From Eledone cirrhosa (Eukaryota): a stretch of 64,000 nucleotides of DNA. Both the position numbers and the translations under genes were made by a program. The notes below the pieces were generated by a model. It worked only from the letters and a program-made list of their open reading frames with translations, had not been told where the DNA came from and ran no database searches. This document shows, piece after piece, positions 54,844-57,790 of this stretch. The stretch spans positions 29,450,001 through 29,514,000 of the forward strand of contig OZ024756.1 in assembly GCA_964016885.1 (NCBI GenBank), read 5' to 3'. Positions within the stretch are counted from its first letter, which is position 1. Every line of letters starts with the position of its first letter.

Positions 54844-57790
54844 TGACCTTAGAAGGTTGAACATCGAAAGTCAACTTGCACAAGATTCGAATTTAGGTGG
54901 ATACAATTAAACACTGCAAAGTATTTTCGCTCACAACACACACACACACACGCACGCACGCACGCACGCATGCACACCTATGTTGTTGAACCCCTGTCGA
55001 TTCTGACGAGTGTTCCGGTTGTTTGATCAACGAAACGGAACAGTCTGTTAGTGAAATTAACATAAATGGTCAGACAATCCTCACACACATGCACACTTAA
55101 TTCTCAGAGATTCAACAGAATAGTCTGAAAAAGAGCTAGCCCCTTTCGCCACAACTGAGCGGAACTGGAGAAATGTGAAATAACATGTCTTGCTCAAGGA
55201 CCCAATGTGCTGCAAAGAATTGAACTCAGTCATATACTGAGAGCTGAATATTCTAACCACAAAGCCACATGCTTTCACATACATCAAATTATTTATAAAA
55301 TACATCCATATAGAAATAAAAGCAAGCAGAGGAGAAATGATAATGATGGCAAATGAGAAGGAAAAACATTGAAAACCAGAGAATAGAAAAGAGGAAGGTT
55401 AAATACATTTAGAAGCTGTCAATGAGAGAGAGAGAGAGAGAGTCAGTCAGTCAGAAAAATGGAAATAGAGAGGGTTATAAAGAGTAGAAGATAAAATCTA
55501 TATGAAAAAGTTTTAACTCTTGATATAGACCTGGCAAAAAACAGATCTGGTTCTATGAAACAAAGCCATCCATTTTGTAAAGCTCCTATTGAGATTATAA
55601 TTTTCCAACATATGAACCATATGTAAAATTACGATCTTAGCAATGAAATATTTAATAATTTTAGTAAATACTTCAGAAATTTTAATCAATTGAAATACAG
55701 TGTTTCTATTATAATTAAAGGGTCTTGCAACGATTTTATATAAGACAAACACTGTCACACAAAAAGTAAATGTATTGAAAGGAGTCTATAGTGTTGTTGA
55801 TCGGATGGAGACAATATAGGGTTTGAAAGGATGCTTCAGTCTGGAAGCGTGTTACAACCTCCACAGTGCTAGTGCCACATTAAAATACACCTAGTACATC
55901 CTGTAAGATGGTTGCTATTAAAGAAGAGCATCCAGTCATAGAAACCCTGCCAAATATGGAATGTATGGACAAGATGGGTCACTTCAATTCGTCTGGTCTT
56001 AGACTGTGACAAACCATCCAACCCATGCCAGTGTGGAAAGCTGACATAAAATGAAGATGATGATGATGGTGGTGGTCGTGATTCATATTTTAAGTTACTA
56101 TCTTAGTAATTAAATAATTAAGAATGTTAGCAAATCACTCAAAATGCAATTACCCAGTACATTACTGGTACTTTATTTTATCGACCCCATAGGGATGAAA
56201 GGCAAAGTTAGCCTTGGCGGGATTTGAATTCAGACCATAAAGGGCAAAGCATGGCGTCCAACCCTCTACCGATACTGCCAATCCACCAATAGCAACTAAC
56301 CTTGTATAGCAACCTTAAAGACAATAGCCGTTCTGATCAAATGAAGCAAAACCATCTAAAGAGTTCCTATTTAAATTAAAATCTTCTAACATAATTTCAT
56401 AGAAAAACCGTATGTTAAATTACTATCATCGAAATGAAATAATAATTTTAGAAAACCCTTCAAAATTCTTCTTTAATTTATTGATATAGAGTGTATTTCA
56501 TTAACAATTTGCCTATGAATTCAATAAATTTGAGTTCTTTCCATTAAGAATATAAACTTCAATAAAATTTTGTTTCAGTTTAGAAAAGAAAAAAAAAAGA
56601 TATATGCAGTTAAATGTAAACCATTATAAAAATTTGTATTCTTTTTATACCTTGATCAAATCTAACAAAATGTTTACACAATAAATTTATATATCTAAAG
56701 TGGGTTGTTTTGTTGTTGTTGTTGCTTTTTTTAATAAGTTATTGGGTCATCAAATATGAAATTTGTAGAAATTTGGGGGGTTTTTTTCCTACAAATTTCA
56801 TACTTGATGACTCAATAAATTCGGGGGTTTTTTTGTGTGTCTTACAAGATTCTTAATTTGAAATGTGTTGAAACATACTTTGAGTGGGTCATGTTGCCAA
56901 TAAAAACGAATACGCCAGTTGAGTTTCACTTTAGTTTTATTATTAGATAACTAATCCATTCCTTCATTAGTTTAATAACCAGATAGTTGTATAAATGTTG
57001 TAGTTCTTTCATCACTCATTCTGTGACTTTGTCAATGACTATTCTTATTCAAGATGGAATAAATAGAAAATCTGAGTAAAGGGGAACAAGAATAGTTATT
57101 GAAAGCTCACAGAATGCTTGACAAAAGAACTTTGACAGTTAAATACATGACAAAAAACTAAACCCCCCCCCCCCCCCCCCCCCCGGCTTTTTGAAACTTA
57201 TCTGTCATTTAATACCCACAAACACTAAAACTAATTTGAAAACAGTAAATATATAAGTAGTAAGCCGCGTTTAGAATAGAGATTTTAATTATCTTGTAAT
57301 ATTAAAACGACTGAGAAAGAAAAACAGAAAATATATAGTATGCAGGCAATTATTAGATCAAGCTACACCTTTAGTGTCATGCAAAATATATATATAATAA
57401 TTTTTTTATATTTATATTTGTGTATAAATATAGTATAGTACCATACTGGCATTATTTTTACCTTGGGCTGAAAAGAAGATATGAAGGAAATATTTTGTTA
57501 AATTGTGAGTTAAAAAAATACTGTAATCAAATTTAATGATATTCAATATGGAATACAAATGGCAATTCAAATATTTAAAATGTTGGAAAAATACAGGGTG
57601 TCCTCAAAAATGTATACACACAACAACATTCTAATAAATATTGCCTGTGCAGGTAATCAAAGTATGTATACATTTTTTTGGGACATCCTGTATATGAAAT
57701 TTACAGCTCACACATATGCAAGTTTAGTTGGCCTCACATGTTTGCATCCATTAAGCTTCTCAAATGTTTTAATGATAGGGGCACCAATCT

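What the first reader, a model, noticed from the sequence alone, without database searches (positions are those of the whole stretch)
57440..57530. 6-nt micro-exon hidden in a 9.7-kb intron restores the conserved Arg of Ig1
Seen: ...tttccttcatatcttcttttcAG|CCCAAG|GTAAAA on the minus strand, in the phase-2 intron splitting Ig1. Skipping gives IETSN-L-ATIRE; inclusion gives IETSN-F-P-R-ATIRE. Established: I-set Ig domains usually have an Arg at the start of strand D that salt-bridges the Asp of DxGxYxC. Micro-exons inside Ig domains tune adhesion specificity (NCAM VASE, LAR-RPTP meA/meB). Inference: a real exon that gene predictors would miss, and possibly a switch for Ig1-mediated homophilic binding.
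Basis: partly seen in the sequence, partly recalled or inferred. Interest (0 to 1): 0.75.

Follow-up and report, generated by a model that had tools for sequence, protein, structure and literature searches.

The report
Six-base optional exon in cephalopod NCAM
A six-base stretch deep in an intron of a cephalopod neural adhesion gene (NCAM family) is likely a real optional exon, since octopus and cuttlefish relatives have protein forms with and without two extra residues at the same spot, and it likely fine-tunes a surface loop of the outermost adhesion domain rather than restoring an essential arginine.

Summary
CCCAAG (57467-57462, minus strand) sits between a pyrimidine-rich CAG and a GT inside the 9,657-nt phase-2 intron that splits Ig1 of an octopod NCAM/Fas2 orthologue. 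It is the best of 233 frame-keeping candidates in that intron; a Pro-X site this good arose in 2 of 5000 shuffles. Orthologues carry the same optional Pro-X insert: Octopus sinensis RefSeq X1 and X2 differ only by PS, and cuttlefish-cluster proteins differ only by PN. The one spliced contig that holds this DNA shows skipping; inclusion in this species was not seen. The Arg idea fails as a general rule: inclusion gives Arg here, Ser in O. sinensis, and displaces Arg in cuttlefish. Both forms fold in AlphaFold2, the insert lying just before strand D. Best reading: a conserved coleoid microexon that likely retunes an Ig1 loop, like NCAM VASE or PTPdelta meA; regulation and binding effect are untested. 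A nemertean NCAM swaps its whole Ig1 second half at the same junction. New member of a known kind; already in one RefSeq annotation.

The parts
62488..62638 (-). Exon encoding first half of Ig1 (strands A to C'); ends in phase 2 with TT|gtaagt
   Evidence: its 3' end is joined directly to the Ig1b exon in RNA contig X4 (loose end)
57468..62487 (-). Upstream half of the Ig1 intron, 5,020 nt
57468..57520 (-). Acceptor region of the microexon: branch-point-like YTRAY at -46 and -34, pyrimidine tract, CAG; AG-free zone 51 nt; no TGC within 20 nt
   Evidence: acceptor 9.4 bits against 1.7-12.1 for the 13 constitutive acceptors
57462..57467 (-). 6-nt cassette microexon CCCAAG; inclusion turns Leu into Phe-Pro-Arg in the loop before strand D of Ig1
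   Evidence: orthologous optional Pro-X insert
57456..57461 (-). Weak donor AAG|GTAAAA, 5.7 bits against 7.2-12.2 for the constitutive donors
57378..57383 (-). TGCATG (RBFOX-type motif) 79 nt downstream of the microexon; candidate inclusion enhancer, weak evidence
   Evidence: background 0.09 per 200 nt; 2 of 17 exons scanned have one within 200 nt
52831..57461 (-). Downstream half of the Ig1 intron, 4,631 nt
52694..52830 (-). Exon encoding second half of Ig1 (strand D to G, with DAGTYTC); its first base completes the junction codon
   Evidence: covered edge to edge by RNA contig X4
29852..50078 (-). Eleven further exons, Ig2-Ig5 and two FN3 domains (50078-49944, 49276-49139, 47558-47446, 47039-46883, 44688-44546, 42732-42382, 37636-37531, 35966-35802, 34668-34528, 34073-33946, 30053-29852)
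   Evidence: summed 1,779 nt against about 1,809 nt of X4 contig left after the Ig1b exon
28261..28287 (-). 27-nt stalk exon (SPDSIEDS), optional in Octopus orthologues
26516..26545 (-). 30-nt stalk exon (YPDEYVDEY), optional in Octopus orthologues
17255..17317 (-). 63-nt stalk exon (TSPPVDPPNPKTNVYKATSK), optional in Octopus orthologues

Best explanation
CCCAAG is likely a conserved, alternatively spliced 6-nt cassette exon of the coleoid NCAM/Fas2 gene, whose inclusion would add Pro plus one residue to the loop just before strand D of Ig1 and likely retune that domain's binding surface rather than its fold. Shown: the splice signals and open frames in this window, a spliced contig that skips it, and orthologues that exist with and without the same two residues. 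Inferred: inclusion in this species; switching by tissue or stage (weak donor, good acceptor, one downstream TGCATG, so perhaps RBFOX-helped neural or muscle inclusion). Predicted: loop position. Untested: any effect on homophilic or heterophilic binding. The junction residue (Arg, Ser or Asn on inclusion; Leu, Phe or Arg on skipping) drifts between lineages; the Pro and the two-residue length do not.
For: Site rank and shuffles. O. sinensis X1 (897 aa) and X2 (895 aa) differ only by PS at this spot. In the cuttlefish cluster two pairs of unnamed Logan proteins differ only by PN at this spot, in two different stalk backgrounds; of the 17 contigs behind the five proteins of that sequence type, 3 carry the insert and 14 lack it, and since contigs drop rare variants (tool text) each form likely dominates in some samples. 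In this window neither tandem donor nor tandem acceptor can give Phe-Pro. Single match in the genome for the longest exon; the protein groups with octopods at 100/99. AlphaFold2 of the O. sinensis included and O. vulgaris skipped proteins: both Ig1 fold, the F-P-S lies between a short turn (69-71) and strand D (75-80); block pLDDT for residues 61-80 is 87/84 with and 92/89 without. Precedent: VASE in NCAM Ig4 (PMC2116347, PMC2120034, abstract starts); meA in PTPdelta Ig2 changes ligand affinity (PMC4423211, passages); TGCATG is enriched downstream of alternatively spliced human microexons (PMC4317164, passages).
Against: The only spliced record that holds this DNA (run X4, one contig, depth 147.5) skips the exon; no inclusion was seen in this species. 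The insert is absent from 12 of 12 O. bimaculoides models read, 2 of 2 O. vulgaris, 2 of 2 S. pharaonis, 1 further Logan protein of that cluster and P0211; Argonauta has a longer, unalignable loop. No genomic DNA of any orthologue could be read, so that the O. sinensis and cuttlefish inserts are cassette exons at this intron is inferred from protein and codon phase. The features reported for fly eMIC-dependent neural microexons (UGC near the acceptor, long AG-free zone, CUAAY; PMC8797185 passage) are not met. TGCATG occurs by chance in about 9% of 200-nt stretches and also follows one constitutive exon.
Confidence: 0.68

Rival explanations
1. One reading: inclusion supplies the strand-D Arg that would pair with the Asp of DxGxYxC, so the exon switches Ig1 between a stable and a weakened fold.
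For: Here inclusion puts Arg in the column where human NCAM2 has Arg; the Asp motif is present; abalone NCAM has Ser-Pro-Arg at the same distance from the Trp as the included form; O. bimaculoides skips to Leu, so a like exon there would also give Arg (inference).
Against: Inclusion gives Ser in O. sinensis and moves Arg two places out of the column in the cuttlefish cluster. Arg is in that column in 8 of 18 non-cephalopod rows only. The skipped form is expressed, has the loop length of human NCAM2 and an orthologous skipped form is modelled with higher local confidence.
Confidence: 0.1
2. The exon is real but nearly neutral: a short, frame-keeping insert tolerated in a variable loop and kept without a binding role.
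For: The loop varies in length across NCAM-like proteins (Trp-to-Cys span 40-50 residues among the rows read correctly); the junction residue drifts; several species' models lack the insert.
Against: Length and Pro are kept in two octopod lineages and a cuttlefish while the protein has drifted to 46-55% identity; a functionless 6-nt exon should decay over that distance (inference).
Confidence: 0.14
3. The site is a remnant or chance match that this species no longer splices in; only the skipped form is made.
For: Only skipping seen in X4; unsupported sites elsewhere in the gene score up to 14.6 bits; weak donor.
Against: The six bases give exactly the Phe-Pro that O. sinensis shows, with intact signals; 2 of 5000 shuffles do as well. 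One contig from one run of unknown tissue shows presence, not absence.
Confidence: 0.05
4. The orthologous two-residue differences come from tandem splice sites or alleles, not from a cassette exon, so they do not support the window's site.
For: The O. sinensis insert (Y-CCN-AG) could be read as the end of an intron used through a tandem acceptor; the cuttlefish proteins are unnamed and could come from different animals.
Against: Under phase 2 the cuttlefish insert ends in AA and begins with a Pro codon, which fits neither a tandem acceptor nor a tandem donor (codon inference); the window has no tandem site giving Phe-Pro; an allele would have to fall exactly on the octopod intron position.
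Confidence: 0.03

Closest known systems
O. sinensis RefSeq 'neural cell adhesion molecule 2' isoforms X1/X2 (XP_036366933.1, XP_036366934.1)
   Same: Same gene, same optional two residues with Pro at the same Ig1 position
   Different: Gives Phe-Pro-Ser, not Phe-Pro-Arg; it is an automated annotation, and none of my nine literature searches returned a description of it
Vertebrate NCAM1 VASE exon
   Same: Short frame-keeping optional exon inside an Ig domain of an NCAM-family gene; regulated in development and linked to loss of neurite outgrowth (abstract starts)
   Different: 30 nt in Ig4, not 6 nt in Ig1; not homologous
LAR-RPTP mini-exon meA (PTPdelta)
   Same: Few-residue insert within an Ig domain that changes trans-synaptic binding (PMC4423211 passages)
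   Different: Other protein family, Ig2, 3-9 residues; its loop is recalled as the D-E hairpin, whereas this insert precedes strand D; binding effect measured there, untested here
Tubulanus polymorphus NCAM2-like isoforms X1/X3 versus X2 (RefSeq)
   Same: Alternative splicing that starts at the same Ig1 junction
   Different: Swaps the whole second half of Ig1 (mutually exclusive exons inferred); no duplicate Ig1b exon in this window
Drosophila Fas2 exon 4
   Same: Short optional exon near the 5' part of the orthologous gene, 45 nt, regulated with age in ovary niche cells (PMC11911433 passages and supplement rows)
   Different: 15 residues; its domain position could not be established here

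Membership tests
NCAM/Fasciclin 2/apCAM | Five Ig domains followed by two FN3 domains | tested here: met
   Open 690-aa model; 55% identical to Octopus NCAM2-named proteins over about 680 columns; orthologue matches NCAM1/NCAM2 chains by sequence and fold
NCAM/Fasciclin 2/apCAM | Both GPI-anchored and transmembrane isoforms by alternative splicing (PMC10084454 passage) | tested here: inconclusive
   A GPI-type terminal exon lies in L009 beyond the window's low end; no transmembrane exon was found in the window or in the 20 kb fetched on that side; orthologues have both
NCAM/Fasciclin 2/apCAM | One-to-one orthology with the cephalopod gene | tested here: met
   1 match at E<=1e-5 among 26 candidates scored in the own genome; octopod clade 100/99 in a 13-row tree; shared stalk exons
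NCAM/Fasciclin 2/apCAM | Signal peptide exon | tested here: inconclusive
   Not found in the 41 kb upstream of the Ig1a exon; the X4 contig has about 480 nt upstream of that exon
Cassette microexon | Very short, frame-keeping, canonical AG and GT, with branch point and pyrimidine tract | tested here: met
Cassette microexon | Both included and skipped transcripts exist in this species | tested here: inconclusive
   Skipped form seen in one contig; included form seen only in orthologues
eMIC/Srrm4-dependent neural microexon | UGC close to the acceptor, long AG-free zone, CUAAY branch point | tested here: not met
   Nearest TGC at -97; AG-free zone 51 nt, inside the 23-124 range of the 14 other acceptors; no CTAAY in 120 nt (features)
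eMIC/Srrm4-dependent neural microexon | Neuron-specific inclusion that depends on eMIC | not testable with these tools
   No tissue-labelled RNA reads were listed
RBFOX-enhanced microexon | Conserved TGCATG in the downstream intron | tested here: inconclusive
   One TGCATG at +79; chance about 0.09; conservation not testable without orthologous DNA
VASE homologue | 30-nt exon in Ig4 | tested here: not met
   6 nt in Ig1; the best candidate listed in the Ig4 intron was not among the top 25 of 2013
I-set strand-D Arg / E-F Asp salt bridge (feature recalled) | Arg at the junction column conserved with inclusion | tested here: not met
   Arg here, Ser in O. sinensis, Asn in cuttlefish cluster; Arg in 8 of 18 non-cephalopod rows

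The most novel reading that the evidence does not exclude
The intron just before strand D of NCAM Ig1 is an ancient site of splice-made diversity in lophotrochozoans: coleoids toggle a neural Pro-X microexon there, a nemertean swaps the whole half-domain there, and together with three or more stalk exons this gives invertebrate NCAM a cell-type adhesion code in its outermost domain that vertebrate NCAM is not known to have.
Probability: 0.25. Interest if true: 0.68.

Novelty: new member of a known kind. Interest (0 to 1): 0.42.

Why it matters
Loop microexons are a known way to tune neural adhesion, but here one of the smallest possible is kept between octopods and cuttlefish (a split recalled as roughly 270 million years) in the outermost domain of a fast-evolving NCAM. 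It gives a clean two-state test of how a two-residue change alters Ig1 binding in the largest invertebrate nervous systems, and a marker exon for finding out which splicing factors drive cephalopod microexons. It also flags likely gaps in O. bimaculoides, O. vulgaris and Sepia gene models. The nemertean half-domain swap at the same junction makes the position itself, not only this exon, worth a comparative study.

Tried and rejected
RNA search: no RNA holder listed; four runs of unknown kind from one study, of which X1-X3 behaved as DNA and X4 as spliced RNA. Inclusion at the Ig1a side of the junction in X4 remains unexamined. Homodimer prediction for Ig1-Ig2 of the included O. sinensis form: no verdict, score 0.19 under the mark of 0.32; not used. 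Tandem donor or acceptor in the window: rejected. Duplicate Ig1 half-exons as in Tubulanus: none; best off-target tblastn hit E 0.017, to the Ig2 exon. Ig1 variation in other molluscs: none among 4 of 4 Liolophura isoforms and the 11 of 15 listed Mytilus proteins that contain Ig1. Signal-peptide exon scan: nothing. Insect Fas2 isoform comparison: the last homologue search returned too few Fas2 proteins, so exon 4 could not be placed. Fold search only confirmed Ig/FN3 adhesion proteins. Literature: 'microexon+NCAM+cephalopod' 0 papers; 'microexon+octopus' 4 papers, 3 listed, the one opened has no NCAM or Fas2 in its main text; searches listed no paper on this exon by title or abstract start. 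The Neuert et al. Fas2 paper is not held. Earlier scan notes: nothing by place, sequence or words.

Full report
1. Observation. On the minus strand CCCAAG occupies 57467-57462, after a pyrimidine tract ending in CAG and before GTAAAA. It lies in a 9,657-nt intron between exon 62638-62488, which ends in phase 2, and exon 52830-52694. Skipping reads IETSN-L-ATIRE, inclusion IETSN-FPR-ATIRE. A 14-exon model is open in both forms, 690 and 688 residues (an earlier version had the Ig4a exon missing or mis-set and was corrected).

2. Chance. I trained a splice-site model on the 13 other exons. The site scores 15.2 bits (acceptor 9.4, typical; donor 5.7, weaker than all 13 constitutive donors) and ranks 1 of 233 frame-keeping candidates of 3-51 nt in this intron. 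In 1000 dinucleotide shuffles of the intron, 22 held a 6-nt site that good, 19 held the strict pattern implied by O. sinensis and 139 the looser Pro-X pattern; 2 of 5000 held a Pro-X site with the observed score. As a control, the same scan over 60,571 intronic bases ranked the orthologue-supported 30-nt, 27-nt and 63-nt stalk exons 1st, 6th and 17th of 2013 and this site 2nd; unsupported sites reached 14.6. The score alone is therefore suggestive; the match to orthologues is what carries the case.

3. The gene. The window lies in a 3.0-Gb genome. The longest exon finds Octopus proteins named neural cell adhesion molecule 2 at 59-60% and one place in the own genome. The spliced model is 52-55% identical to Octopus and Argonauta proteins and 46% to a cuttlefish cluster and groups with octopods at 100/99 in a 13-row tree. 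It has five Ig and two FN3 domains, optional stalk exons and a GPI-type last exon: the cephalopod NCAM/Fas2/apCAM orthologue.

4. Transcripts of this DNA. No holder was on record as RNA. Laying the four listed runs on the Ig1b exon showed three DNA-like runs and one, X4, with a 2,577-nt contig that covers only the exon; its loose end at 52830 is the reverse complement of the end of the Ig1a exon, so this contig skips the microexon. The remaining contig length (about 1,809 nt) fits the 1,779 nt of the eleven downstream exons. Contigs drop rare variants and the tissue is unknown, so this shows that the skipped form is made, and nothing about absence of the included form.

5. Orthologues. Of 13 O. 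sinensis RefSeq models, 12 read ESK-FPS-ISI and one (X2) reads ESK-F-ISI; X1 and X2 differ only by PS. Both O. vulgaris models and all 12 O. bimaculoides models read (13 in the cluster) lack the insert. In the cluster that holds Sepia pharaonis NCAM, five unnamed Logan proteins of one sequence type split into LNN-R-TKL (three proteins, 14 contigs) and LNN-RPN-TKL (two proteins, 3 contigs); two pairs are otherwise identical over 749 and 770 residues. The two S. pharaonis models, one further Logan protein and P0211 lack it. With a phase-2 intron these inserts read Y-CCN-AG and N-CCN-AA, against C-CCA-AG here. I could not read orthologous DNA, so their exon nature is inferred; the cuttlefish insert fits no tandem splice site, and the window offers none that gives Phe-Pro.

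6. The Arg. The Arg codon is made across the junction. HMMER aligns that residue with the Arg of human NCAM2 and puts a two-residue gap in NCAM2 against the included form, so the skipped form has the NCAM2 loop length. Inclusion yields Arg here, Ser in O. sinensis and Asn in the cuttlefish cluster, where skipping keeps Arg. Among 18 non-cephalopod NCAM-like proteins (16 picked from the 150 hits for a full-length match, 2) Arg stands at the junction column in 8, by my reading of the alignment. The conserved trait is thus a Pro-X insert, not the Arg.

7. Structure. AlphaFold2 models were made of the O. sinensis included protein and the O. vulgaris skipped protein, whose Ig1 differ only by PS, each on a 23-row alignment. 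Both fold with mean pLDDT 88. The inserted residues lie between a short turn and strand D; local confidence is a little higher without them. The window's own protein was not folded. No coordinates were available, so no interface was mapped.

8. Regulation. The acceptor lacks the marks reported for fly eMIC-dependent microexons. A TGCATG lies 79 nt downstream, the place where human alternatively spliced microexons are enriched for it, but chance is about 9% and one constitutive exon has one too. The weak donor and the split among cuttlefish contigs point to regulated, sample-dependent inclusion; neural specificity is a guess.

9. Mechanism. Most likely (0.68) a conserved cassette microexon that adds Pro-X to an exposed loop of the outermost domain and so adjusts binding, in the manner of VASE and meA. 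Rivals: tolerated near-neutral exon (0.14), Arg-dependent stability switch (0.10), remnant unused here (0.05), orthologous inserts of other origin (0.03). I put the exon being real and usable at about 0.9; the binding role is the uncertain step.

10. Wider context. Tubulanus polymorphus RefSeq isoforms swap the whole second half of Ig1 at the same junction, which suggests that this intron is old and has been used for Ig1 diversification more than once. Chiton and mussel isoforms show no such variation, and the window has no duplicate half-exon. Drosophila Fas2 has a 45-nt optional exon 4 whose domain position I could not fix.

11. Novelty and papers. The exon is in effect annotated in O. sinensis RefSeq. 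Nine searches of the held library listed no paper on it; most subscription papers are not searched. Seen: passages of PMC8797185, PMC4423211, PMC10084454, 10.64898/2026.09.05.749416 and 10.64898/2026.05.24.727532; abstract and passages of PMC4317164; passages and supplement rows of PMC11911433 (one supplement file unreadable); search listing with abstract start for PMC2116347 and PMC2120034. Recalled, not from a call: the Arg-Asp salt bridge of I-set domains, the loop that holds meA, the octopod-decapodiform divergence time. Verdict: real, conserved, a new member of a known kind; the Arg story is not supported; interest 0.42.

Noticed in passing
P0162 vs P0195/P0196 (Tubulanus polymorphus RefSeq): Isoforms swap the entire second half of Ig1 right after ...ITSTDRR, the junction that matches the octopod phase-2 intron: likely mutually exclusive Ig1b exons, a Dscam-like variable half-domain in an NCAM.
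   Followed up: partly
window 28287-28261, 26545-26516, 17317-17255 (minus): Three short phase-1 stalk exons (27, 30, 63 nt) that orthologues use in many combinations ahead of the GPI or transmembrane ending; the 30-nt acidic YPDEYVDEY exon has a like sequence in Argonauta and has TGC right at its acceptor.
   Followed up: partly
L009 about 3121-3047 (minus): GPI-signal terminal exon of the gene, about 17 kb beyond the window's low end.
   Followed up: partly
P0061 (Haliotis cracherodii): Abalone NCAM has Ser-Pro-Arg at the same distance from the Ig1 Trp as the included form here; the Pro-Arg loop may predate cephalopods.
   Followed up: no
window 36528-36517 (minus): 12-nt frame-keeping candidate (14.1 bits) in the intron between Ig5 and the first FN3; no orthologue support noticed.
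   Followed up: no
window 62638 / 62630 (minus): A second CAG 8 nt downstream of the Ig1a acceptor, directly before an ATG; out of frame with the phase-1 site.
   Followed up: no
window 63998-63300 (minus): 233-codon open stretch that looks like the end of a LINE-type reverse transcriptase (label recalled), in the gene's upstream intron.
   Followed up: no
window 18400-24350 and other introns: Kilobase-long AT-rich simple-repeat arrays.
   Followed up: no
whole gene: Octopod NCAM evolves fast: this protein is only 52-55% identical to Octopus and Argonauta orthologues and 46% to the cuttlefish cluster.
   Followed up: partly
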